From: an uncultured Actinomycetota bacterium
GTDB taxonomy: Bacteria > Actinomycetota > Actinomycetes > Actinomycetales > Microbacteriaceae
Direction of reading: 5' to 3'
Length of the DNA stretch: 64,000 nt
NCBI GenBank assembly: GCA_963756345.1
Contig: CAVWNM010000001.1
Span: 24,773-88,772 of the forward strand
How positions within the stretch are numbered: position 1 is the stretch's first letter; each line of letters begins with the position of its first letter. The notes under the pieces are model-generated. The model had not been told where the DNA came from. It saw only the letters and a list, made by a program, of their open reading frames with translations, and searched no databases. Below, piece after piece: positions 7,977 through 60,819 of this stretch. A program made the position numbers and the translations under genes.

Positions 7977-8842
7977 CGAACCTCACCCTCGGCCGAACCG
8001 ACAGGTATCTGCCACGCAAGAAGCGCACCTTCAAGGTGCATCCCCTCATCTGGATCGCCATGTGGGGTTACGCCGCGATCTCAGCGGTGCCGCTGCTGAT
8101 CATGTTCCTGAACTCGTTCAGGTCGAGCGCCGAACTGATTGCCAACCCATGGCCATTCACCACCTCGCCAACCATCGAGAACTACGTGAATGCGTGGACT
8201 CAGGCATCGTTCGCAAACTATGTGGGCAACTCCGTCATCGTCACCGTGGGTGCGGTCGTCCTGTCGACGGCAGTCTCATTGCCTGCGGCGTACGCGTTGT
8301 CTCGCTGGCAGTTCGTCGGCAACCGGCTTCTCCAGGCGCTGTTCATCTCCGGGCTGATGGTGCCGATGATGCTCGCGATCCTGCCGATCTTCTACCTGAT
8401 GGACTCGCTCAATCTCATCGATTCGCCGCTCAGCCTCATCCTGATCTACGGGGCAAACGGCGTTCCCTTCTCGATCTTTGTGCTCTCCGCGTTCTTCCGT
8501 CAGCTTCCCGTGGAGCTCGAAGAGGCGGCATCCATCGATGGCTCAGGCTACTTCCGCACATTCGTTCAGGTCATGCTGCCGCTCGTATGGCCGGCAGTCG
8601 CGACAGTGGCGGTCTTCCGCTTCGTGCCCATCTGGAATGAGTTCCTCATGCCGTTGGTGCTGTTGCGGTCGAGGGAGAACTACACGATCTCCGTCGGACT
8701 CACGACCTTCTTCAGCGAGTATGAAACCGATCGAGCCAGCCTGTTCGCCGGCCTGGTCATCGCAACCATCCCGCTGCTGATTCTCTTCATCCTCGCGACC
8801 AAGCAGATTGTGCAGGGACTCACGGCTGGGCTTGGAAAGTGA
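7973..8842 (+). CDS. carbohydrate ABC transporter permease (MalG/UgpE-like)
   Basis: ATG 7973 (MTNLTLGR...) lies inside the long ORF 7028..8842, which is two genes. EAA loop EEAASIDGSGYFRTF. Overlaps the upstream permease stop. Confidence 0.85.
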   Translation: MTNLTLGRTDRYLPRKKRTFKVHPLIWIAMWGYAAISAVPLLIMFLNSFRSSAELIANPWPFTTSPTIENYVNAWTQASFANYVGNSVIVTVGAVVLSTAVSLPAAYALSRWQFVGNRLLQALFISGLMVPMMLAILPIFYLMDSLNLIDSPLSLILIYGANGVPFSIFVLSAFFRQLPVELEEAASIDGSGYFRTFVQVMLPLVWPAVATVAVFRFVPIWNEFLMPLVLLRSRENYTISVGLTTFFSEYETDRASLFAGLVIATIPLLILFILATKQIVQGLTAGLGK

Positions 8843-9784
8843 GTCCGGCGCGACCGGATCGCCGGGTGGTCTGCATCGGGGAGGCCATGGCACAGATCGT
8901 GCCCGCCACTCCCGAATCCCTGCTGACGGCGCCGTACTTTCTGCTGCGGCACGGTGGCGCCGAGACCAATGTTGCCGTCACGCTTGCGGCCCTCGGTACA
9001 CCAGCAGCCTGGTTCGGGCGTCTGGGTGACGATGCTCTCGGGCATCGCATCCGCGCTGAGGTGAAAGCGCAGGGCGTCGACGTTTCGCTCGTCGTGCTCG
9101 ATCCGAGCGCGCGCACCGGGGTCTTCTTCAAGGACCCGGATCCAGAGGCTCGACGCGTGCTGTATTACAGGGATGACTCCGCAGCATCCCGAATGAACGC
9201 ACGCGACATCGAGGGCATCGAACGGGCCGACCCGCTGTGGATCCATGTGAGCGGGGTAACCGCCGCGCTGTCACCCAGCTGCCTCGCCGCCGTCGAGGAG
9301 GTGATCGACCGCGCTGGTCGAGCATCCATCCCCATCAGCTTCGACATCAACTACCGCCCCGTGCTGTGGTCGGATCGCGATACCGCCGCGCAGACACTTC
9401 GAGCGCTGGCTCTTCGCGCAACGGTCGTCTTCGTCGGCCTGGATGAAGCGGACTGACCTCTGGGGCGCGACCACTGCAGCGGACGTTCGTGAACTGCTCC
9501 CGGAGGTGCCCATCCTTGTGGTGAAGGACGGCCCGATCGCAGCGACAGAATTCGGGTCGGATCACACGGTGGCCGTGCCTGCGCTCCAGGTCGAGGTTGT
9601 TGAGTCGGTTGGCGCCGGAGACGCTTTCGCCGCAGGCTGGATCCACGGATTCCTCAACGGTAGCGACGCTGCTGACCGTCTGACCCTCGGCCACCTCACG
9701 GCCCGCGAGGCCCTGCTCAGCACCACGGACCAGGGCGACCTCACCGCACTCGCGAGCCTGCGCCTCGTCGGGATGACGCCGTGA
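8839..9784 (+). CDS. kdgK: PfkB-family sugar kinase, 2-dehydro-3-deoxygluconokinase-like, apparent frameshift near 9440-9460
   Basis: ORF 8839..9456 holds the N-terminal ribokinase-fold part. ORF 9443..9784 carries the C-terminal GAGDAF anion-hole motif. GTGA start/stop overlap with the upstream permease. Specific KdgK assignment is inferred from the neighbouring aldolase. Confidence 0.7.
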
Positions 9785-10404
9785 CCGGTGTGGGCGCGCT
9801 CAGTGCCGCGTACTTCACTGAGGCACTGCCGGCTGGCTCGATCCTCGCGATCCTGCGAGGACACGAAGTCGATCGCACCCTTGCGCTCGCGGAGTCAGTC
9901 TGGGCAGCCGGAGTGAACCTCGTCGAAATCCCGGTTCAGGATTCGCGCTCTCTCGTCGCACTGCGCGAGACGGTCGCACTCGGGAGGAGTCTCGGCAAAG
10001 AGGTAGGAGCGGGAACGATTGTCTCGACCGAGCTCGTCGCCAGGGTGAGGGAGGCGGGAGCAGCGTTCACGGTCGCGCCGGGTCTGGACCCGCTCGTTGT
10101 CGCCGCCAGCGAGGAACACGGCCTTCCCCACCTCCCGGGCGTGTTTACACCGAGCGACATTCAGTCGGCACTCAGGGCCGGATTCTCGTGGATGAAGCTG
10201 TTCCCTGCCGCGGTGCTCGGCCCAGCCGGGTTGCGGCAGCTTCGAGGCCCGTTTCCCGACGTCACCTTCGTTGCGACCGGCGGGGTGGAGGTCGACAGCG
10301 CCGAGGCGTACTTCAGGGCGGGCGCTCGCGCCGTGGGCATTGGCAGTGCGGTCGAGTCAATCACGGCGGCAGACGTTGGCGAGCTGGAGCATGGCGGTGC
10401 CGCA
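9781..10404 (+). CDS. eda: 2-dehydro-3-deoxy-phosphogluconate (KDPG/KDPGal) aldolase; reads in-frame into the downstream dehydratase as given
   Basis: ILAILRGHEVDRTLALAESVWAAGVNLVEIP and TFVATGGV are KDPG-aldolase signatures. A normal about 208-aa length ends at 10404. No in-frame stop occurs before the dehydratase ATG at 10405. A TGA in the +1 frame overlaps that ATG (ATGA). Confidence 0.7.
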
Positions 10405-12198
10405 ATGACGCAGAGCAACGCGAAGCGGTTGCGGAGCAACCAGTTCTACAGTTCCAACACGATGATCTCCGTCATCCGTAACGGGCATATGCACTCCCTC
10501 GGGTTGCCCGAGGGCGCGCTGAGGTCGGGGAAGCCGGTTATCGGCATCGCGAACAGCGCGTCGGATCTAGCCCCGTGCAACGCACACCTGAGCGACCTTG
10601 CGGAGTCTGTGAAGCGGGGCGTTCTTGATGCGGGCGGTATTCCGCTGGTGTTCCCGACGATCAGTCTCGGCGAGACGAATATGGCACCGACGACCATGCT
10701 CTTCCGGAACCTCATGAGCATGGACGTCGAGGAGATGATCCGGGCCAGTCCGATCGACGGAGTGGTACTGCTCGGAGGTTGTGACAAGACCGCGCCGGCG
10801 CAGCTCATGGGGGCGGCGAGTGTGGACATCCCCACCCTGGTTGTTACCGGCGGACCGATGCTCACCAGCCGATTCAGGGGCAAACCGCTGGGCACCGGCA
10901 CCACGGCGTCGAAGATGGCTGACCAGGTGCGAACCGGCGAGATCACGCCCGGTGAGTTCTTCGCTACTGAAGTTTGTTACGCCCGGAGCGCTGGCCACTG
11001 CGCCGTGATGGGGACGGCGTCGACCATGGGCAGCACGATCGAGGCTCTCGGCATGCAGCTCCCGGGCACCTCTTCGATTCCCGCCCCCGAGACGGGCAGG
11101 CGGCTCGCGGCGCATGAGGCAGGCCGACGCATCGTGGACATGGTCGCCGAAGACCTGCGACCGTCCACGATCATGACCCGAGCTGCCTTCGAGAACGCGA
11201 TCAAAGTGAGTGCGGCACTCAACGGATCGACCAACGCGGTGCTGCATCTCTTGGCGATCGCGGGGAGGGTCGGAGTCGAGCTGTCTCTCGACGATTTCGA
11301 CCGGTGGGGCAGGGACATCCCTCTCCTGGCGAACCTGCAACCCACCGGAACGTACTTCATGGAGGACTTCCATCACGCCGGCGGCCTGCCGGCGCTGATG
11401 GCCCGTCTCACAGATCACCTCAATCTCGACGCAATCACTGTGAGCGGCTCGACGGTCGGCGAGAACCTCGCCTCGGCCGAGTGCTACGACGATGATGTGA
11501 TCCGGACCGTTGAGACCGCGTTGGGAACCGGCTTCGGCACTGCCGTGCTTCGGGGCAACCTGGCCCCACAGGGCGCTGTAATCAAACAGGCGACCGCGAG
11601 CGAGTCGCTGATGGTTCACCGTGGGAGAGCGGTCGTCTTCGATTCCATCCGCGACTGCCAGCTGCACATCGATGACATCGACCTCGACATCGATGCGACG
11701 TCGGTTCTCGTGGTGAGAAACGCGGGACCGGCTGGGTACCCGGGGATGCCCGAGGTAGGAAAGCTCCCGATCCCGCGGAAGCTGCTGGCCGCTGGAGTGA
11801 CCGACATGGTGCGCATATCGGATGCCCGAATCAGCGGCACGTCGTTCGGTACCGTCATCGTGCATGTCGCACCTGAGGCAGCCAAGGGCGGGCCGATCGC
11901 GCTAGTTCGTAACGGCGATGTCATCAGTCTCGACATCCCGAACCGCAGCCTTGTGCTGGAGGTGGATGAAGTCGAGCTCGAGAGCCGCAGAGCGCTCCTT
12001 GCCTCTGAGGAGGTGCGGTTCGAGCGCGGCTATGCGCGCCTGTACGTGGATCACGTTCTGCAGGCCGACCGCGGTGCCGATTTTGACTTCCTGGTGGGCA
12101 GTAGCGGGCCCGATTTCACCGGGGGAGACCCCCACCTCCCGCCTGACGAGAACGAATTGCTGCGACCAGCCTTCTCAGCGGCGGAGGCGACAGCATGA
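10405..12198 (+). CDS. IlvD/EDD-family sugar-acid dehydratase (arabinonate/galactonate/xylonate dehydratase-like)
   Basis: IlvD/EDD-family motifs (CNAHL, GGCDKTAPA, SGTSFG). About 598 aa from ATG 10405. Substrate is not assignable from sequence alone. Confidence 0.8.
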   Translation: MTQSNAKRLRSNQFYSSNTMISVIRNGHMHSLGLPEGALRSGKPVIGIANSASDLAPCNAHLSDLAESVKRGVLDAGGIPLVFPTISLGETNMAPTTMLFRNLMSMDVEEMIRASPIDGVVLLGGCDKTAPAQLMGAASVDIPTLVVTGGPMLTSRFRGKPLGTGTTASKMADQVRTGEITPGEFFATEVCYARSAGHCAVMGTASTMGSTIEALGMQLPGTSSIPAPETGRRLAAHEAGRRIVDMVAEDLRPSTIMTRAAFENAIKVSAALNGSTNAVLHLLAIAGRVGVELSLDDFDRWGRDIPLLANLQPTGTYFMEDFHHAGGLPALMARLTDHLNLDAITVSGSTVGENLASAECYDDDVIRTVETALGTGFGTAVLRGNLAPQGAVIKQATASESLMVHRGRAVVFDSIRDCQLHIDDIDLDIDATSVLVVRNAGPAGYPGMPEVGKLPIPRKLLAAGVTDMVRISDARISGTSFGTVIVHVAPEAAKGGPIALVRNGDVISLDIPNRSLVLEVDEVELESRRALLASEEVRFERGYARLYVDHVLQADRGADFDFLVGSSGPDFTGGDPHLPPDENELLRPAFSAAEATA

Positions 12199-24589: not shown

Positions 24590-25250
24590 CTACTTTCTGC
24601 GCGTGGCGAGCAGTTCGACGACCTCGCCGTCCGAGGTCTGACCGAAGTGCAGGTAGTGCTCTCCGACTGCCCGAAATCGGTGAGGCTGAATGAGGCAGAC
24701 CACCTCGTCGGCGCCGTGCACCTGGCGAGCCGCCTCAGGCCCACCGACGGGCGCGGCCACAATCACTCTGGAAGCGCCGAGGGCACGGGCGACCTTGCAC
24801 GCCGCAGAGGCGGTCGCGCCGGTGGCGATGCCGTCGTCGATGATGAGCGCGGTGCGACCGGTGAGATCCAGGGGTTCGAAACCCGCCCGGAATCGGGCAA
24901 CCCGCGCCTCGAGGGTGGCGCGTTCGTCCCGCTCGACTGACGCGATCTGCGCGGCGGTGATGCCGCCCCATCCGATCAGGTCACGGTCCAGCACGCGCAC
25001 ACCATCTTCCCCGATCGCCCCCATCGCAACCTCGGGCTGGAACGGTACGCCGAGCTTGCGCACGACGATCACATCCAGCGGGCGCGTCGAGCACTGTGGC
25101 GACCTCCGCGGCGACTGGTACCCCGCCGCGCGGGAGACCAAGCACGATGAGATCGGCGCGCGTGTCAGCCGGCTGGTGGGACAACCAGGTGTTCAGCCGG
25201 GCGGCGAGCTGCCGACCGGCATCCACTCGATCCTTGAACTCCCGACTCAT
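24590..25250 (-). CDS. phosphoribosyltransferase (COG1926-type PRTase), apparent frameshift at a CCC run near 25085-25095
   Basis: N-terminal part in ORF 24981..25250 (MSREFKDRVDAGRQLAARL...LIVLGLPRGGVPVAAEVA). PRPP-binding core in ORF 24590..25141 (LDVIVVRKLGVP ... TALIIDDGIATGAT). It lies 31 bp downstream of the baeRF gene on the same strand. Confidence 0.75.
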
Positions 25251-25281
25251 GACACCTCCACATCACGGCGATCTCGATCAG

Positions 25282-26397
25282 TCAGCCTTCGCGGCCCGCC
25301 GGCGGGCGGACTCGGGCGTATCTCAGCACCGCTGCAACCGGATCAGTGGTCGGGAGGTCACTCGGCTTCACGGGCACGATCGTCGCGTCGCTGTTCATCG
25401 CGTCCCGCACGATCTCGTCCACCTGATCGAGAGGGTTCGCACCTTCGCCGTCGGGGCCCGGAATGCGGCGATCCATGTCGACCAGCAGCATGTCGATGGC
25501 GCCTTCGCTGGCAGCTTCCGCTATCTCGTCGATTCCGGTCAGGATGAGGCCGCGGGCGGGCATCTCGGCGAACCGTGCCAGCTGGGCCTCCAGGACCTCG
25601 CGTCGATGATGCTCGATGGCCGGAGCGGCGAGGTCTGCGATCTCCGAGAGCGAGTCGCCGTCGTGATTGCCGACGATGGTGGATGACGCGACGGGAGAGT
25701 GCGACGACATCGCCCTGTAGATGCTGGCCAGGGGCTCAGTGGCCGCGATCACGAGCACGGCCCGGAGACCTCTCAGCACCGGCTCGACGGCATCATCGAT
25801 TGCGCGCGCATACTCACGGAGCCGCCCCTTCGGGTCGTCAGAGACACGCAAACGGGCGAGGGTGTTCCGATCTCCGGTCACGTCGAGCGCGAGCGTGCTC
25901 GTCATGTCCTCGGGGAGGTCGGGGACCTCAACGACCTGCGCGGGATGCACGGTGACCTCGATGAGACGCACCTCGTTCTCGGAAAGCGCGAGAACGCAGA
26001 CGCACGGGGTGCGCTCGAGCGCGCCCTCCAGCAGCGGACCGACGAGGAACCTGTCGGAGACGCCAACCCACGGGGTCGGCGCGTTTGCGAGCGCGAACAC
26101 CTCGGCCGACTGCTCGGTGGCAAAAATGCCCACGGATTGGGCGTGCCGGTCGATCTGGCTGGGTTCGCCGTGGGGGGTTGCGAGGCCCTGAAGATGCTCG
26201 CGGATTGCGTCGATGACGTCGGGCGGCGCGTCCGCTTCCTGCAGGGCTTGTGCCACAGACCGCAACTGCCCCTGAGCCGTGCCGGTCGCGTGATTGCCGC
26301 GTAGCCACGACGCAGCTTCGCCATACAGGGTGACGCACCATGGCGCCCGAATTCCCGCGAACCGGCGAACGTCTCGGAGTCGAGGATGTGCCGTCAT
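25282..26397 (-). CDS. bacterial eRF1/Pelota-like (baeRF-family; 'Vms1/Ankzf1-type peptidyl-tRNA hydrolase'-like) protein
   Basis: 371 aa from ATG 26397, preceded by an AAGGAGG ribosome-binding site. The C-terminal region GLILTGIDEIAEAASEGAIDMLLVD resembles eRF1 domain 3 / Pelota C-terminus (G..EV..AL..GAVE.LLV). ORF track 25282..26907 is an upstream extension. Family call is from motif recognition and is not search-verified. Confidence 0.6.
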   Translation of the reverse strand: MTAHPRLRDVRRFAGIRAPWCVTLYGEAASWLRGNHATGTAQGQLRSVAQALQEADAPPDVIDAIREHLQGLATPHGEPSQIDRHAQSVGIFATEQSAEVFALANAPTPWVGVSDRFLVGPLLEGALERTPCVCVLALSENEVRLIEVTVHPAQVVEVPDLPEDMTSTLALDVTGDRNTLARLRVSDDPKGRLREYARAIDDAVEPVLRGLRAVLVIAATEPLASIYRAMSSHSPVASSTIVGNHDGDSLSEIADLAAPAIEHHRREVLEAQLARFAEMPARGLILTGIDEIAEAASEGAIDMLLVDMDRRIPGPDGEGANPLDQVDEIVRDAMNSDATIVPVKPSDLPTTDPVAAVLRYARVRPPAGREG

Positions 26398-26488
26398 TGT
26401 GATCCTCCTTGATCGTGGCATCCATTTTTTCACTGCTCGGGCGTCGGCGAAAGTGCCGTAAGTCCCTCTGTGGTGGCACCATCGAAGT

Positions 26489-27064
26489 ATGGCTCCCACA
26501 CTGCACATCACAGGCGATCCGGAATCTGATGCTCTTCTCTCCGACGACCCGCTGGCACTGCTCATCGGGATGTTGCTCGACCAGCAGATCCCCATGGAGA
26601 CAGCGTTCGCCGGTCCTGCGAAGCTGCGAGACCGGCTGGGACAATTGGATGCCGCTGAGCTCGCGTCGTTCGACCCCGAAAAGCTCGTCGAAGTGTTCCG
26701 CATCACTCCCGCTGTCCACCGATTCCCGGGCTCGATGGCCGGCCGGGTGCAGTCGCTGTGTGCCGCGGTCGTCAGCGAGTGGGGTGGACGCGCTGACGCG
26801 ATCTGGTCTCGCGATGAACCCGATGGCGCTGAGATTCTTGCCCGGCTCAAGGGCTTGCCAGGCTTCGGTGAACAGAAGGCGAAGATCTTCCTGGCTCTCC
26901 TGGGCAAGCAATACGGGGTGGAAGCGACAGGGTGGCGCGACGCCGCCGGCGACTACGGCAAGGAGGGCTCATGCCGCTCCGTTGCGGACATTGTCGATGC
27001 GGCATCCCTGACGAAGGTTCGCGAGTTCAAGCGCGCGGCGAAGGCGGAAGCCAAAAAACAATAG
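26489..27064 (+). CDS. HhH-GPD family protein (base-excision-repair glycosylase-like)
   Basis: 191 aa with a helix-hairpin-helix GPD region (LKGLPGFGEQKAKIFLALL). Divergent from the baeRF gene. Confidence 0.6.
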   Translation: MAPTLHITGDPESDALLSDDPLALLIGMLLDQQIPMETAFAGPAKLRDRLGQLDAAELASFDPEKLVEVFRITPAVHRFPGSMAGRVQSLCAAVVSEWGGRADAIWSRDEPDGAEILARLKGLPGFGEQKAKIFLALLGKQYGVEATGWRDAAGDYGKEGSCRSVADIVDAASLTKVREFKRAAKAEAKKQ

Positions 27065-27093
27065 GTGTGAGAATGCCCTTGCGCTTCGGGGCT

Positions 27094-27522
27094 ATGACGA
27101 GAACAATAAACCACATGGTTTACTCGACCGGTGTAAACGAATCGGACGCCCCCGAAGCGCTCGATCGCGTATTCGCCGCGCTCTCGCATCCCACGCGACG
27201 ACGCCTTGTGCGCTACCTCGCAAACCGCCCGCGTGCGCCCCGGATGTCCCAGGTTGCCCAAGACAACGGTCTTTCCCCTCAGCTGCTGAACAAGCACACA
27301 GCCGCACTGGAAAAGGCCGGGATGGTGCAGAGGGTCACTATAGGCCGCGAGAGCATGCTGGTTATCGACCGGGCCGCGCTCATCGAGGCGCAGAAGTGGA
27401 TAGTCGACACCCGCGCGTTTTGGGAGGGCCAACTCGACTCGCTCGATGCCTACATTGACAAGCTCGCGTCGCAGGGCGCAATTCCGCCCACCACACCAAA
27501 GGATCAGTCATGGCCGAATTAA
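27094..27522 (+). CDS. ArsR/SmtB family transcriptional regulator
   Basis: HTH motif ALSHPTRRRLVRYL. Start at ATG 27094 or 27073. Overlaps the downstream SRPBCC gene. Confidence 0.75.
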   Translation: MTRTINHMVYSTGVNESDAPEALDRVFAALSHPTRRRLVRYLANRPRAPRMSQVAQDNGLSPQLLNKHTAALEKAGMVQRVTIGRESMLVIDRAALIEAQKWIVDTRAFWEGQLDSLDAYIDKLASQGAIPPTTPKDQSWPN

Positions 27523-27968
27523 GCCTCACGCTAGAACGCACCTTCGCGGTGAGCCGAGACACGATGTGGCAGCTCTGGACGGATGAATCACACGCCAGCC
27601 AATGGATGCGCCCCTCACTCACCGAATACGGCCCAACCAGGGCGACCATCGACGCGCGCGCAGGTGGTCATTACCGATTCGAGCTTCTGCACGGAAGCGA
27701 TGAGATGTCGGTCATCGTTGGTGAATACCTCGAGGTTGAGGCCCCCGAGCGGCTGGTCTACACCTGGGCGTGGGAGGGAGACCCTCACGTCTCTCGCGTT
27801 GAGGTGCGCTTCCACGAGGTGCCAGACGGAACCCTGGTGAACATCTTCCACAGCACGCTGGCGTCGCCGGAGTCCGTTGCGGCCCACGAGCAGGGCTGGA
27901 TCGGATGCCTCAACACCCTCTCCAGCACCATCGACTCCAGCACTTTCGACTCCGTCGCGCGTCGCTGA
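27510..27968 (+). CDS. SRPBCC (AHSA1/polyketide-cyclase-like) family protein
   Basis: 152 aa. Classical ArsR-SRPBCC pair. Confidence 0.7.
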   Translation: MAELSLTLERTFAVSRDTMWQLWTDESHASQWMRPSLTEYGPTRATIDARAGGHYRFELLHGSDEMSVIVGEYLEVEAPERLVYTWAWEGDPHVSRVEVRFHEVPDGTLVNIFHSTLASPESVAAHEQGWIGCLNTLSSTIDSSTFDSVARR

Positions 27969-49904: not shown

Positions 49905-50058
49905 CGGCTTCCTTCTTCCGGTCTTCGGAATGATGGTTCCACGCTCGTCGCGGGCAGCAATGGCGGACAGTGCCGAAAGTCCCATTGCCCCCATGAATTT
50001 CTTCCGGGGTGGGACCTTTGGCCCGGGCGCGCCCGATTCGCTGACCTAGCGTGGAGGG

Positions 50059-51103
50059 ATGAAAGCTCTCCAGTATCGCGAAATCGGTTCAGCGCCCGTC
50101 GTCGTAGAGATCCCAGACCCCGAGCCAGGACCCGGCCAGGTACTGCTGAAGGTCACCGCTGGCGGCGTTTGCCACTCTGACCAGTTTCTGATGAGCCTGC
50201 CTCAGGATCAGTACGACGCCTTCGGCTTCGGGCTTCCCCTTACCCTCGGCCACGAGGGAGCGGGAACTGTGGAATCGATCGGCGCTGGAGTGACGGGCAT
50301 CACACTCGGGGAGTCGATGGCCGTCTACGGGCCGTGGGGCTGCGGGCGTTGCCACATGTGCTGCCCAGGGCAAGGAGAATTATTGCACCGAGGCCGCGCG
50401 CCTCAGCATCCAGCCGCCCGGGCTGGGCGCACCAGGGTCGATGGCGGAGTACCTGCTGGTCGACGACGCCCGGCATCTCGTTCCGCTGGGCGACCTCGAT
50501 CCTGTCGCCAACGTGTCGTTGACAGACGCGGGTCTCACGCCGTATCACGCGATCAAGATGTCACTGCCGAAACTGATCGCGGGATCCACTGCCGTGGTCA
50601 TCGGCGCCGGCGGACTCGGACATGTCGGCATCCAGATCCTTAAGGCGCTGTGCCCGGCGCGTGTGATCGCGGTCGATCTGAGCGAACAGAAGCTTGAGCT
50701 CGCCCGCGCTGTCGGAGCCGATGAGGCTATCCTGAGCGACGGCGACGCTGCTGCCGCGATCCGGGATCTCACCGGCGGACTCGGGGCTGTTGCGGTCTTC
50801 GATTTCGTGGGCGCACAGCCAACCGTCGAATTGGCGGGCGCTGTGGTCGCGGTCGAGGGTGACCTCACTATTGTCGGCATCGGCGGCGGGATGCTGCCCG
50901 TCGGCTTCGGTTCTGTGCCGTATGACGTAGCCGTGCGTGCGCCGTACTGGGGAAGCCGTTCCGAACTCATGGAGGTGCTCGATCTCGCCCGCGTCGGCAA
51001 GATTTCCGTCGAGACTGAGACTTTCTCGCTCGCCGACGCACCAGGCGCATACGAGAAGCTGCACGCTGGCACCATCCGCGGACGCGCTGTCATCGTCCCC
51101 TGA
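50059..51103 (+). CDS. zinc-dependent alcohol dehydrogenase (MDR family), apparent frameshift near 50380-50390
   Basis: GHEGAG and Cys cluster (GCGRCHMC) in ORF 50059... The continuation (ENYCTEAARLSIQPPGLGAPGSMAEYLLV...GAGGLGHVGIQ) is in the frame of ORF 50441..51103. Confidence 0.8.
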
Positions 51104-59086: not shown

Positions 59087-60819
59087 ATGAGAACACGAAG
59101 CAGCCGCGCCCGGATCTCGCTTGCTGTTCTGGTGGTCTTCGCGATCGTCGCGGTATTCGTGGTGCGGCTGGTCGACATCCAGGTCGTACGCGCGGAGGAA
59201 TTCAACGCGGCATCCTCGACAAGCGCGGACAAGACATCACCACCTACGGCGTTCGCGGCGACATCGTCGACGCGCAACGGCAGTGCTGGCCGACAGCGTG
59301 TTGCGATACGACATCACGGCATCACCAAGAGTCGCCCTGCTTCCGACGGATGCCGCGACCTCAGTTCCGGCCCAGCTCGCCGAGATCGCGGCCCTTTCCG
59401 GGCAGGATCCGGCGGCGCTCTACGCGGCGATGACCGCGGACCCGACCTCCGACTTCATGTATCTGGTGAAGGGCGTCACTCTGGACGTCTTCGAGCAGAT
59501 CGACGCGCTCAACATTTCGTGGGTCTACCCCGAACGAAAGTCGGCGCGAAGCTACCCGAACGGTGAAATCGCGGGAAACCTGGTCGGGTTTATCGGCACG
59601 GATGGTCCGCAGGCCGGGCTCGAGCTGACCGAGAACGAATGCCTGGCGAGCGAGAACGGAACTCTCACCTACGAGCGGGGGGAGGACGGAACTGCGCTTC
59701 CCGGCAGCGAGGTCGTGACGGAGCAGAGCAAGGACGGCGGCACGCTTCGGCTAACCATCGACCGCGACCTGCAGTTCTACGTGCAGCAGCGGATGGAACA
59801 GACCGCGCTCGAGCTCGGTGCAACCTGGGCCACAGCCGTCGTCATCCGCGTGGCAGACGGCCACCTCATGTCCGTCGCCGACTGGCCCACCCTCGATCCC
59901 AACAATGTTGATGCCGCATCGCGGGATGCACTGGGATCACGTGCCTTCAGCACGCCATACGAGCCGGGTTCCACGATGAAGGCCCTCACGGCCGCATCGC
60001 TGGTCGATTCGGGCACAGTGAGCCCCGGAGACGGCGTTGTCGTGCCATACGAGCTTCTGCAGGCAGACGGCAGCTCGATCCACGACGCTTTCTACCACGA
60101 AACCCAAAACCTCACCCTCGCCGGAGCTCTGGTGGAGTCATCCAACGTGGCAGTTGCCCAGTTCACCGACAGGCTGTCTGCTGAGAAGCGCCACGATTAC
60201 ATGTCAGCGTTCGGTCTAGGGAAGTACACCGAGGTCGAGTTCAATGGCGAGTCGGCCGGCCAGCTCCTCCGACGCCGACCAGTGGTTTGGCCGCACGAAC
60301 TACGCGGTGCAATACGGCCAGGGCATGAGCGCGACCTCGGTGCAGATGGCAAGCGTCTTCCAGACGATCGGAAACCAGGGAGTCAGGATGCCGGTGACTC
60401 TCGTTGAGGGCTGTGAGCAGGCTGACGGCACGATGACGGACGTCGCATCCTCGGAGGGCACGCAGGTGCTTTCCACATCGGCGGCTGACCAGACCGTGGC
60501 GATGATGGAGCAGGTCGCGAACAAGAGCGGTTCGGCCCCGAAACTTCAGATTCCCGGCTACCGCACGGCCGTCAAGAGTGGAACCGCCGAGGTCGCAATC
60601 AATGGCGGATATTCCGACAACAGCGTGGTGATCTCGTACGCAGGGGTCGCTCCAGCCGACGATCCCCAGTACGCGGTCGTGGTGACCGCAGGCATCCCCG
60701 CTAGGGTGTTCTCGGGACTAATCGCCCCTACCTGGCGCGATGTTATGGCCCAGACCCTCACCACTTTCCGGGTGCCGCCGTCAACGACGCCGGCCCCGGA
60801 CCTTCCCGTCAACTGGTGA
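59087..60819 (+). CDS. ftsI: penicillin-binding protein 2/3 (FtsI-type transpeptidase), at least 2 apparent frameshifts (near 59230-59300 and 60255-60275)
   Basis: N-terminal TM plus VRLVDIQVV in ORF 59078... Dimerisation domain and the transpeptidase STMK motif (GSTMKALT), with a following TLAGALVESSNV stretch, in ORF 59121..60407. KSGTAE (KTG box) in ORF 60244..60819. Confidence 0.8.

What the first reader, a model, noticed from the sequence alone, without database searches (positions are those of the whole stretch)
24590..26397. Two-gene operon: baeRF-family (bacterial eRF1/Pelota-like) protein plus COG1926 phosphoribosyltransferase
A 371-aa protein has a C-terminal region (GLILTGIDEIAEAASEGAIDMLLVD) resembling domain 3 of eRF1/Dom34-Pelota. 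Its real start is ATG 26397 with a consensus AAGGAGG ribosome-binding site. Only 31 bp downstream on the same strand is a stand-alone PRTase. Bacterial eRF1-like (baeRF) families were predicted computationally to act in ribosome rescue or translation quality control, and have been reported in neighbourhoods with nucleotide-processing enzymes. To my knowledge none has been characterised biochemically in an actinobacterium. The tight baeRF-PRTase pairing suggests a functional couple (for example stalled-ribosome or damaged-tRNA end processing, or a nucleotide signal). A HhH-GPD protein is divergently transcribed from the same 90-bp promoter region.
Basis: partly seen in the sequence, partly recalled or inferred. 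Interest (0 to 1): 0.72.

Follow-up and report, generated by a model that had tools for sequence, protein, structure and literature searches.

The report
Balon-type ribosome hibernation gene with PRTase
The 371-residue protein belongs to the Balon family of ribosome hibernation factors, described in 2024, and sits behind a dormancy-regulator-like DNA box next to a frame-shifted phosphoribosyltransferase gene, so this is an ordinary new member of a known family with a modestly interesting conserved neighbour.

Summary
The 371-aa ORF (26397..25282, minus strand; ATG, AAGGAGG 6 nt upstream) is real and intact. It is an aeRF1-like protein of the baeRF clade. A family profile matches the solved Psychrobacter Balon over its full length (E 6e-27). 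The AlphaFold model (pLDDT 87) has Balon/Msmeg1130/Rv2629 ribosome complexes as its best structural matches (TM about 0.7). It has no GGQ or NIKS motif, so a peptidyl-tRNA hydrolase role is unlikely.

The claim that no actinobacterial member has been characterised is out of date. Rv2629 and Msmeg1130 have cryo-EM structures on ribosomes and inhibit translation in vitro.

The PRTase 31 nt downstream (TT1426/COG1926 type) is split over two frames by one extra base in a CCC run (25080-25082). Three other genes in the window carry similar single-base frameshifts, so an assembly error is plausible.

Balon-PRTase adjacency is conserved in 10 of 16 Microbacteriaceae-type loci. An erythromycin-esterase-like gene often follows the PRTase. 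The adjacency is absent in two proteobacterial relatives.

A DosR/OsdR-like box precedes the gene, here and in relatives.

Verdict: a dormancy-regulon hibernation factor and a new member of a known kind. Low to moderate interest.

The parts
25282..26397 (-). Balon-family (baeRF clade, aeRF1-like) gene, 371 aa, intact
   Evidence: ORF and sequence. Pfam baeRF_family11/8/3. NCBIfam AOC03_06830 ribosome hibernation factor family, E 2.4e-21 but below its cutoff. Profile versus PDB Balon 8rd8_B, E 6.3e-27. hhalign probability 98.3%. AF2 pLDDT 86.9. Best Foldseek matches are Balon structures.
26404..26410 (-). Shine-Dalgarno sequence AAGGAGG, 6 nt before the ATG at 26397
   Evidence: Read directly from the sequence.
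26451..26467 (-). DosR/OsdR-like box AGGGACTTACGGCACTT, centred about 62 nt upstream of the Balon ATG and ending 22 nt from the divergent HhH-GPD ATG
   Evidence: A PWM built only from 20 boxes in other genomes ranks this site second of 127,968 positions in the window. Chance of such a hit in the 91-nt spacer is about 0.002. Homologous boxes lie 65-200 nt upstream of Balon in L001, L002, L003, L005-L009, L012 and L019.
26398..26488 (.). 91-nt divergent intergenic region between the Balon-like gene and the HhH-GPD gene
   Evidence: The sigma-70 consensus scan found no promoter here. TGAAAAAAT, 18 nt after the box, is a possible extended -10 element (my reading of the sequence, an inference).
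24590..25250 (-). Type I phosphoribosyltransferase gene (TT1426/COG1926 type), 219 codons plus one extra base, read in two frames
   Evidence: Two ORFs in different frames. Pfam Pribosyltran on both pieces. tblastn shows the frame switch. 1WD5 TT1426, E 6.9e-34. Alignment A3 shows no residue missing at the junction. dN/dS is 0.14-0.22 against intact orthologues.
25080..25082 (-). CCC run holding the extra base that breaks the PRTase frame
   Evidence: Removing one C restores ...VLDAPLDVIVVRKLG..., which matches all homologues.
25255..25259 (-). GGAGG ribosome-binding site of the PRTase, 4 nt before ATG 25250
   Evidence: Read directly from the sequence.
49968..50026 (.). Two further DosR/OsdR-like boxes: 49984..49968 on the minus strand (TGGGACTTTCGGCACTG) and 50010..50026 on the plus strand (TGGGACCTTTGGCCCGG). 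They lie between a small membrane-protein ORF and a Zn-alcohol dehydrogenase, and probably belong to the same regulon.
   Evidence: PWM ranks 1 and 3 in the window. ORFs. ADH_N and ADH_zinc_N.

Best explanation
The 371-aa protein is a Balon-type ribosome hibernation factor. It is a catalytically inert, three-domain aeRF1-like protein.

By analogy with Psychrobacter Balon and mycobacterial Rv2629/Msmeg1130, it would occupy the ribosomal A site independently of mRNA, probably together with EF-Tu(GDP). It would shut down and protect ribosomes during stationary phase, hypoxia or stress.

The gene sits behind a DosR/DevR/OsdR-like palindromic box, so it is most likely switched on by a dormancy-type two-component regulator.

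The downstream PRTase (TT1426/COG1926 family, substrate unknown) is co-transcribed as another member of that regulon. This mirrors M. tuberculosis, where Rv2629 (Balon) and Rv0571c (putative PRTase) are both DosR-regulated but unlinked.

In this sequence the PRTase is broken by one extra base. This is either a sequencing error or a very recent inactivation.

Shown here: family membership, fold, absence of release-factor motifs, conserved adjacency, the conserved upstream box, and the frameshift. Inferred: ribosome binding, EF-Tu involvement, regulation by a DosR-like protein, and any role of the PRTase.
For: Family and fold:
- Pfam baeRF_family11 (100.6 bits), family8 and family3.
- NCBIfam ribosome hibernation factor models AOC03_06830 (E 2.4e-21) and Rv2629 (E 1.2e-6) are the only hits.
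- A 35-sequence profile hits PDB Balon 8rd8_B at E 6.3e-27 over residues 11-361, Msmeg1130 at 1e-8 and Rv2629 at 1.3e-4, ahead of Pelota and aRF1.
- hhalign gives 98.3% over 342 columns.
- The AF2 model has pLDDT 86.9 and pTM 0.83. The five best Foldseek matches are Balon or Msmeg1130 on ribosomes, TM 0.68-0.70.
- There is no GGQ or NIKS motif.

Published function of the family:
- A-site binding, EF-Tu(GDP) association, inhibition of in vitro translation, and location in stress operons (PMC10901736).

Regulation:
- A box with consensus CGGGACCTTCGaCCCTG recurs upstream of Balon in at least 10 related loci. It also precedes USP, BON, PRTase and glyoxalase genes. PPDK and Pyridox_ox genes lie in the same loci.
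- It resembles OsdR AGGGCCGATCGGCCCT (PMC5069765) and DosR TTSGGGACTWWAGTCCCSAA (PMC2275270).
- The window's box is the second-best PWM hit in 64 kb (P about 0.002).
- Rv2629 and Rv0571c are both DosR-regulon units with DosR motifs.

Adjacency:
- A PRTase lies directly downstream in L002, L003, L005, L007, L009, L010, L012, L019, L024 and the window. That is 10 of 16 non-redundant loci, at Balon identities of 38-69%.
Against: - The NCBIfam scores are far below the equivalog cutoffs (76.6 versus 330; 27.9 versus 320). The protein is therefore a sister family, not an orthologue of a tested protein.
- The founding Balon is Pfam family3 and the window protein scores best on family11.
- Balon's HP motif is not conserved at the aligned positions; the window has L32-R33, followed by G-N-H.
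- The C-domain insertion that helps Balon bind EF-Tu is much shorter here (A1).
- The loop equivalent to the lasso loop is modelled with low confidence (residues about 170-188).
- The window's box has a degenerate right half (GGCAC, not GGCCC or GTCCC).
- No DosR-like regulator was identified.
- No hibernation factor HPF/RaiA was noticed next to the gene, although the neighbouring ORFs were scanned only in part.
Confidence: 0.72

Rival explanations
1. The baeRF protein is a ribosome-rescue or translation quality-control factor, possibly a peptidyl-tRNA hydrolase. It works as a dedicated functional couple with the PRTase, for example in tRNA-end or nucleotide processing on stalled ribosomes.
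For: The fold is aeRF1/Pelota-like. The PRTase lies 31 nt downstream, with no terminator predicted between the two genes. The adjacency is retained across Balon identities of 38-69%. A PRTase::alpha/beta-hydrolase fusion (L010) and PRTase-esterase pairs hint at a small pathway.
Against: There is no GGQ or NIKS motif in the protein. Only 1 of 35 family members has a GGQ, and it lies in the C-terminal domain. The nearest characterised relatives are non-catalytic hibernation factors (PMC10901736). The PRTase is missing from 6 of 16 related loci, and one locus has Balon followed directly by the esterase (L022). The same PRTase family occurs without Balon in stress islands. Two proteobacterial family-11 members lack the pairing.
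Confidence: 0.1
2. The cassette is decaying in this genome. The PRTase is a true, recent pseudogene and the esterase has already been lost, leaving Balon as a stand-alone gene.
For: The frameshift is present in the deposited genome, where the gene is called as a 157-aa truncation lacking the nearly invariant GLPRGGVPVA loop. The closest relative (L019, 69% identity) has Balon-PRTase-esterase, whereas the window has no esterase anywhere in 64 kb. Related genomes show several reduced forms: Balon alone, Balon-esterase and Balon-PRTase.
Against: dN/dS of both halves against intact orthologues is 0.12-0.26, like the intact-versus-intact comparison (0.13). There are no further lesions, and the RBS and start codon are intact. 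Three other unrelated genes in the window (PfkB kinase, Zn-ADH, class B PBP) carry the same kind of lesion. Each can be repaired by deleting one base from a short G/C run, which looks like systematic over-calling.
Confidence: 0.35
3. The protein is a conflict or defence-related A-site blocker, as in the 2019 proposal that baeRF-1 families arose in biological conflicts. On this view it is not a housekeeping stress hibernation factor.
For: Burroughs and Aravind propose effector-driven origins and wide lateral transfer for baeRF-1 (PMC6514570). The genomic context of the family is patchy and variable.
Against: Balon, the PRTase and the esterase have no PADLOC hits. No mobile-element or toxin genes were seen next to it in the window. 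The neighbours in relatives and the shared upstream box point to a USP/Hsp20/BON/ADH stress regulon.
Confidence: 0.05

Closest known systems
Balon (Psychrobacter urativorans AOC03_06830; PDB 8RD8/8RDV/8RDW; Helena-Bueno et al., Nature 2024, PMC10901736)
   Same: Same three-domain aeRF1-like architecture and about the same length (371 versus 369 aa). Full-length profile match at E 6.3e-27 and hhalign 98.3%. Foldseek TM 0.69-0.70. No GGQ or NIKS motif. Shared RF / RL / (L)RY motifs.
   Different: About 19% identity. Balon scores best on Pfam family3 and this protein on family11. It is below the NCBIfam equivalog cutoff. The HP motif is not conserved at the aligned positions. The C-domain insertion that contributes to EF-Tu binding is about half as long. 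The neighbour is a PRTase, not RaiA.
Mycobacterial Balon homologues Msmeg1130 and Rv2629 (PDB 8V9J/8V9L/8V9K)
   Same: Actinobacterial and the same fold (TM 0.63-0.70). Rv2629 is DosR-regulated, and the window gene has a DosR/OsdR-like box. Both mycobacterial proteins bind the A site and inhibit translation.
   Different: The sequence relation is weaker than to the Psychrobacter Balon (E 1e-8 and 1.3e-4; NCBIfam Rv2629 family 27.9 bits versus cutoff 320). In M. tuberculosis the gene is not next to a PRTase (Rv0571c is elsewhere, judging from the locus numbers).
aeRF1 / Pelota (Dom34)
   Same: Overall domain organisation. The C-terminal domain matches Pelota C-domains (1x52_A E 0.0028; 5eo3_A TMt 0.68).
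   Different: Lacks the GGQ (peptide release) and NIKS (stop-codon reading) motifs. Whole-protein TM is only 0.22-0.47.
TT1426 of Thermus thermophilus (PDB 1WD5) / COG1926 'predicted phosphoribosyltransferase'; M. tuberculosis Rv0571c (annotated putative PRTase, DosR regulon)
   Same: The reconstructed 219-aa PRTase aligns end to end with 1WD5 (E 6.9e-34). It keeps the PRPP loop LIIDDGIATGAT and the GLPRGGVPVA loop. Rv0571c is listed as a DosR-regulon putative PRTase. A PRTase::alpha/beta-hydrolase fusion exists in a relative (L010).
   Different: No substrate is known for any member. No curated NCBIfam model reaches its cutoff. Homology to Rv0571c itself was not tested here. The window copy is frameshifted.
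DosR/DevR regulon of M. tuberculosis and OsdR regulon of Streptomyces coelicolor
   Same: A palindromic GGGnCC-N4-GGnCCC-type box lies 50-200 nt upstream of genes for USP, Zn-ADH, PPDK, Pyridox_ox, PRTase and Balon.
   Different: The Microbacteriaceae consensus (CGGGACCTTCGaCCCTG) is a hybrid of the two published consensus sequences. No regulator gene was identified and no binding was shown.

Membership tests
Balon / baeRF-1 clade of the aeRF1 superfamily | Significant sequence match to family models and to an experimentally solved member | tested here: met
   Pfam baeRF_family11 100.6 bits (cutoff 27.2), family8 93.1, family3 88.8. Profile versus 8rd8_B E 6.3e-27, full length. hhalign 98.3%.
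Balon / baeRF-1 clade of the aeRF1 superfamily | Three-domain aeRF1-like fold (N domain, central RNase-H-like domain, Pelota-type C domain) | tested here: met
   AF2 pLDDT 86.9, pTM 0.83. Top five Foldseek PDB hits are Balon or Msmeg1130, TM 0.68-0.70; aRF1, eRF1 and Pelota follow.
Balon / baeRF-1 clade of the aeRF1 superfamily | Absence of the GGQ and NIKS motifs | tested here: met
   Neither motif occurs in the protein. One of 35 family members has a GGQ, at residue 315 in the C domain.
Balon / baeRF-1 clade of the aeRF1 superfamily | HP motif in the N domain that contacts A1492/A1913 (PMC10901736) | tested here: not met
   Balon's H-P aligns with L32-R33 of the window protein. A conserved R-G-N-H follows, with G34 invariant and H36 nearly invariant in the close clade. 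The loop has pLDDT about 68. The printed alignment suggests Msmeg1130 also lacks HP there, so this may not be a family-wide feature.
Balon / baeRF-1 clade of the aeRF1 superfamily | Lasso loop, bL27 trap and C-domain beta-loop for EF-Tu | tested here: inconclusive
   The central-domain loop (about 170-188) is low-confidence. The C-domain insertion is present but short, about 16 aa versus about 29 in Balon. No structure superposition tool was available.
Balon / baeRF-1 clade of the aeRF1 superfamily | Binds the ribosomal A site and inhibits translation | not testable with these tools
   Needs biochemistry or cryo-EM.
NCBIfam equivalogs AOC03_06830_fam_RHF and Rv2629_fam_RHF | Score above the curated whole-protein cutoff | tested here: not met
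   76.6 bits versus 330, and 27.9 bits versus 320. The protein is a sister family, not an equivalog.
Catalytic class-I release factor / peptidyl-tRNA hydrolase of aeRF1 or Vms1 type | Conserved Gln in a GGQ-like catalytic loop | tested here: not met
   No GGQ or GGxSQ. The loop region is poorly conserved in A1.
Type I phosphoribosyltransferase (PF00156; TT1426/COG1926 subgroup) | PRPP-binding loop (acidic pair followed by small residues) and PRTase-fold homology | tested here: met
   LIIDDGIATGATA is invariant in A3. 1WD5 E 6.9e-34 over residues 5-214. Pfam Pribosyltran on the C-terminal piece, 27.4 bits versus cutoff 26.3.
Type I phosphoribosyltransferase (PF00156; TT1426/COG1926 subgroup) | Intact reading frame | tested here: not met
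   661 nt and two frames. One extra base at 25080-25082.
DosR/DevR/OsdR-type dormancy regulon | Palindromic regulator box upstream of the gene | tested here: met
   The box at 26467..26451 scores 13.2 with a PWM trained on other genomes. It is rank 2 of 127,968 positions, P about 0.002. Conserved boxes lie upstream of orthologues.
DosR/DevR/OsdR-type dormancy regulon | Cognate response regulator present, and induction by hypoxia or stationary phase | not tested
   No regulator was searched for in the window. Expression cannot be tested here.
EreA/EreB macrolide esterases (third gene of the cassette in relatives) | Score above the NCBIfam EreA/EreB cutoffs; presence in the window | tested here: not met
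   The L019 esterase scores 37 and 23 bits against a cutoff of 750, with Pfam Erythro_esteras only. No homologue exists anywhere in the window.
Known anti-phage defence systems (PADLOC) | Match to any defence-system protein model | tested here: not met
   No hits for Balon, the PRTase or the esterase.

The most novel reading that the evidence does not exclude
In Microbacteriaceae, Balon, the COG1926 PRTase and a hydrolase (Ere-like esterase or fused alpha/beta hydrolase) may form a functional module. In it, the PRTase and hydrolase would make or destroy a phosphoribosylated small molecule or nucleotide signal, or sense PRPP or (p)ppGpp. That signal would gate loading of Balon/EF-Tu onto ribosomes or their release from them. 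This would be an enzymatic control layer for ribosome hibernation that has not been described.
Probability: 0.1. Interest if true: 0.7.

Novelty: new member of a known kind. Interest (0 to 1): 0.3.

Why it matters
The result places a Microbacteriaceae protein in the Balon family of A-site hibernation factors, and it corrects an out-of-date premise: actinobacterial members have already been characterised.

Two small additions may be useful to people studying ribosome hibernation or actinobacterial dormancy. Neither was found in the papers searched.
- A Balon-PRTase(-esterase) cassette recurs in Microbacteriaceae.
- A DosR/OsdR-like box is shared by Balon, the PRTase and USP, BON and ADH genes. 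This suggests that the link between Balon and the uncharacterised Rv0571c-type PRTase in the M. tuberculosis DosR regulon is ancient and regulatory.

The result also flags that this assembly carries several single-base frameshifts. Pseudogene calls from it should therefore be treated with caution.

Tried and rejected
- Single-sequence scan of genome contigs found nothing. The 35-sequence alignment was too diverse for pattern design. A 17-sequence alignment worked.
- Exact look-ups of the window's own Balon (P0001) and truncated PRTase (P0078) found no contig on record.
- The metagenome scan added only 6 loci.
- The sigma-70 consensus scan found no promoter in the 91-nt spacer and no terminator between or after the two genes.
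- A programmed +1 frameshift in the PRTase was rejected. There is no stop or rare codon at the site, and all orthologues are in frame.
- Macrolide-resistance esterase as part of the locus was rejected. The esterase is absent from the window and is not EreA/B-like in relatives.
- A defence system was rejected.
- HhH-GPD and SemiSWEET-like genes as functional partners were rejected. Neither is conserved in any of 27 other loci.
- The supplementary neighbourhood data of the 2019 baeRF paper are not held.
- A literature search for Balon together with phosphoribosyltransferase found nothing relevant.
- Co-folding of the two proteins could not be run with the single-chain predictor.
Full report
**Observation**

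The minus strand between 26397 and 25282 holds an intact 371-codon ORF. It starts at an ATG that lies 6 nt after AAGGAGG (26410..26404) and ends at TGA 25284..25282. All 34 aligned homologues begin at the same residue, which supports this start.

Thirty-one nucleotides downstream, ATG 25250 is preceded by GGAGG and opens a phosphoribosyltransferase gene. This gene is not one reading frame:
- The span 25250..24590 is 661 nt.
- Residues 1-57 are in one frame (ORF 25250..24981) and residues 58-219 in another (ORF 25141..24590).
- tblastn with the joined protein shows the frame switch at 25080-25082.
- Deleting one C from the CCC run there restores ...VLDAPLDVIVVRKLG..., a nearly invariant stretch in ten homologues, with no residue missing.
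- The source genome's own gene call is a 157-aa truncation (P0078, on a 2.85-Mb contig) that lacks the conserved GLPRGGVPVA loop.

The divergent gene across the 91-nt spacer is a TIGR03252 HhH-GPD protein (E 1.8e-89). The convergent gene below the PRTase is a weak SemiSWEET/PQ-loop match.

**What the 371-aa protein is**

Family models:
- Pfam gives baeRF_family11 (E 1.2e-28), family8 and family3.
- The only NCBIfam hits are two ribosome hibernation factor models: AOC03_06830 (E 2.4e-21, 76.6 bits) and Rv2629 (E 1.2e-6). Both are far below their equivalog cutoffs.
- AOC03_06830 appears to be Balon, the A-site hibernation factor found in Psychrobacter urativorans in 2024 (PMC10901736). I infer this from the model's name and its ribosome hibernation factor description; no tool result states the equivalence.

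Comparison with solved structures:
- A single-sequence PDB search hits only the Balon chain, weakly (8rd8_B, E 0.045).
- A 35-sequence family profile hits it at E 6.3e-27 over the full length. Msmeg1130 (1e-8), Rv2629 (1.3e-4), then Pelota and aRF1 C-domains follow.
- hhalign gives 98.3% probability over 342 columns.
- The AlphaFold model is confident (pLDDT 86.9, pTM 0.83). Its five best Foldseek matches in the PDB are Balon or Msmeg1130 bound to ribosomes (TM 0.68-0.70). Rv2629 scores 0.63, and aRF1/eRF1/Pelota score 0.22-0.47.

Motifs and placement:
- The protein has no GGQ and no NIKS motif.
- The founding Balon scores best on Pfam family3 (105.6 bits). The window protein scores 100.6 bits on family11 and 88.8 on family3.
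- I therefore file it as a sister lineage inside the Balon/baeRF-1 clade, not as an orthologue of a tested protein.

Differences from Balon:
- The HP motif is not conserved at the aligned positions (L32-R33, followed by a conserved G-N-H).
- The C-domain insertion that helps Balon bind EF-Tu is about half as long.
- The loop equivalent to the lasso loop is low-confidence.

**What is already known**

Burroughs and Aravind (PMC6514570) predicted in 2019 that most baeRF-1 families are non-catalytic A-site binders linked to HPF. The main text does not mention a PRTase, and the supplement is not held.

Helena-Bueno et al. (PMC10901736) reported the following:
- Balon binds the A site independently of mRNA, together with EF-Tu(GDP).
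- It is found in about 20% of representative bacteria.
- The actinobacterial homologues Rv2629 and Msmeg1130 bind M. smegmatis ribosomes in cryo-EM and inhibit translation in vitro about 15-fold.

A 2025 preprint suggests that Psychrobacter acquired Balon from Actinobacteria. That fits the window protein being closer to Psychrobacter Balon than to Rv2629.

**Conservation of the PRTase adjacency**

Homologues are few (76 clusters). The close ones come from Microbacteriaceae: Glaciibacter, Pseudolysinimonas, Schumannella, Lacisediminihabitans, Microbacterium, Salinibacterium and Rhodoglobus.

Among 16 non-redundant loci with enough downstream sequence, the arrangements are:
- PRTase directly after Balon on the same strand in 10 loci: L002, L003, L005, L007, L009, L010, L012, L019/L021, L024 and the window. 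Balon identities there run from 38% to 69%.
- A 431-aa Erythro_esteras-family gene overlapping the PRTase stop in four loci: L003, L007, L012 and L019.
- Balon followed directly by the esterase, with no PRTase, in L022.
- PRTase fused to an alpha/beta (DLH-like) hydrolase in L010.
- Neither gene adjacent in L001, L004, L006, L008 and L023.

Two proteobacterial family-11 members have no PRTase. The window has no esterase anywhere.

The PRTase family is very large (at least 7,998 clusters). It often occurs without Balon. The closest PRTase (83% identity) has no Balon upstream. Two others sit in islands with USP, Hsp20, BON-domain proteins, a P-type ATPase, PPDK and Zn-ADH.

The PRTase matches T. 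thermophilus TT1426 (1WD5, E 6.9e-34), a structural-genomics protein of unknown substrate. No curated NCBIfam model reaches its cutoff.

**A shared regulatory box**

Aligning the regions upstream of Balon in the related loci exposed a conserved 17-mer, for example CGGGACCTTGGACCCTG in L019. It lies 65-200 nt before the start codon in L001, L002, L003, L005-L009, L012 and L019.

The same box precedes USP, BON, glyoxalase and PRTase genes in the Balon-less islands L027 and L028, often as divergent pairs.

Its consensus (CGGGACCTTCGaCCCTG) is a hybrid of two published consensus sequences:
- the OsdR consensus AGGGCCGATCGGCCCT of Streptomyces (PMC5069765);
- the DosR consensus TTSGGGACTWWAGTCCCSAA of M. 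tuberculosis (PMC2275270).

The genes it precedes overlap those two regulons: USPs, Zn-ADH, PPDK and pyridoxamine-phosphate oxidase.

I built a weight matrix from 20 boxes in other genomes only and scanned the window:
- Rank 1: 49984 on the minus strand (17.4).
- Rank 2: AGGGACTTACGGCACTT at 26467..26451 (13.2), about 62 nt upstream of the Balon ATG. The chance of such a hit in the 91-nt spacer is about 0.002.
- Rank 3: 50010 on the plus strand (12.4).

Ranks 1 and 3 flank a small membrane-protein ORF and a Zn-ADH. Both strong window boxes share the variant right half GGCAC.

In M. tuberculosis, Rv2629 (Balon) and Rv0571c (annotated putative PRTase) are both DosR-regulon units with DosR motifs. 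The simplest reading is that Balon and this PRTase family are long-standing co-members of an actinobacterial dormancy regulon, and that in Microbacteriaceae they have become physically linked. Homology of the window PRTase to Rv0571c itself was not tested.

**Is the frameshift real?**

While checking assembly quality I found three more genes split across frames:
- a PfkB-family sugar kinase, junction about 9448-9463;
- the Zn-ADH, with ADH_N in 50059..50643 and ADH_zinc_N in 50441..51103, junction about 50356-50375;
- a class B penicillin-binding protein, with Transpeptidase profile positions 2-144 in one frame and 145-278 in the next, junction about 60261-60276.

By my reading of the sequences, each can be repaired by removing one base from a short G or C run. 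Four such lesions among roughly 60 genes, all of one type, look more like systematic over-calling than independent pseudogenisation. I could not verify this without reads.

The PRTase's dN/dS against intact orthologues is 0.14-0.22, with both halves alike. The intact-versus-intact value is 0.13. The gene has therefore been under purifying selection until very recently, if it is not intact in reality.

**Mechanism and rivals**

Best explanation (confidence about 0.7): this is a Balon-type hibernation factor that plugs the A site of idle or stalled ribosomes under stress. It is transcribed from a DosR/OsdR-type promoter together with a regulon-mate PRTase of unknown substrate.

Family, fold, motif absence, adjacency, box and frameshift are shown here. 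Ribosome binding, EF-Tu use and regulation are inferred from relatives.

The rivals are:
The missing GGQ, the variable presence of the PRTase, and the PRTase's independent life in stress islands all argue against it.
- A truly decaying cassette. This remains possible, since the esterase is absent and reduced forms exist in relatives.
- A defence role. No PADLOC hit supports it.
- A direct functional module of Balon, PRTase and hydrolase. This is not excluded (about 0.1) and would be the interesting case.

**Verdict**

It is a new member of a known kind. The conserved cassette and the regulon box are modest additions. Interest 0.3.

Noticed in passing
window 59091-60819 (+), junction about 60261-60276: A class B penicillin-binding protein is split over two frames. 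Transpeptidase profile positions 2-144 lie in ORF 59091..60407 and positions 145-278 in ORF 60220..60819. The frame can be repaired by removing one C in CAGCTCCTCCGAC.
   Followed up: partly
window about 8840-9784 (+), junction about 9448-9463: A PfkB-family sugar kinase is split over two frames. The N-terminal part ends at a premature TGA (9454-9456). The C-terminal part (PfkB profile positions 196-296) continues in ORF 9305..9784.
   Followed up: partly
window 50059-51103 (+), junction about 50356-50375: A Zn-dependent alcohol dehydrogenase is split over two frames, with ADH_N in one frame and ADH_zinc_N in the next. Removing one C from GCCC restores the CGxCxxCxxGxxNxC zinc motif. With the PRTase, this makes four single-base frameshifts in 64 kb, which suggests an indel-prone assembly or a pseudogene-rich genome.
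   Followed up: partly
window 49968-50026; also L001 2974/2996, L002 4573/4595, L027 3103/3149, 4880, 7481 and 8291, L028 4128/4137: A DosR/OsdR-like box (consensus CGGGACCTTCGaCCCTG) recurs, often as divergent pairs, upstream of USP, BON, glyoxalase, PRTase, Zn-ADH and small membrane-protein genes in Microbacteriaceae. This looks like an undescribed dormancy-type regulon motif for the family.
   Followed up: partly
L003 6778-8100, L007 6769-8064, L012 6810-8111, L019 6802-8097, L022 5127-6422: A 431-aa Erythro_esteras-family gene (not EreA/EreB by NCBIfam cutoffs) overlaps the stop of the PRTase, or follows Balon directly in L022. This forms a three-gene cassette that is reduced to two genes in the window.
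   Followed up: partly
L010 597-1895: A PRTase is fused to an alpha/beta (DLH-like) hydrolase domain directly after Balon. As I recall, M. tuberculosis Rv0571c has the same architecture; this was not checked with a tool.
   Followed up: no
L003 8108-10747, L006 2106-4844, L013 10667-11116, L028 6718-9552, L007 8942-9376: Cation-transporting P-type ATPases and an Hsp20 recur within a few kb of Balon or the PRTase in related genomes. The M. tuberculosis DosR regulon list includes Rv1997 and Rv2031c, which I recall as ctpF and hspX.
   Followed up: no
window 9676-12198 (+): One stop-to-stop open frame carries a KDPG aldolase domain followed by the Edd/IlvD dehydratase domains. It is either two genes in the same frame without an intervening stop or a fusion.
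   Followed up: no
window 26932-27968 (+): A possible ArsR-type HTH regulator (HTH_20) is followed, with an overlapping stop and start, by an AHSA1/SRPBCC protein just beyond the HhH-GPD gene. This is a common pair and unrelated to the finding.
   Followed up: no
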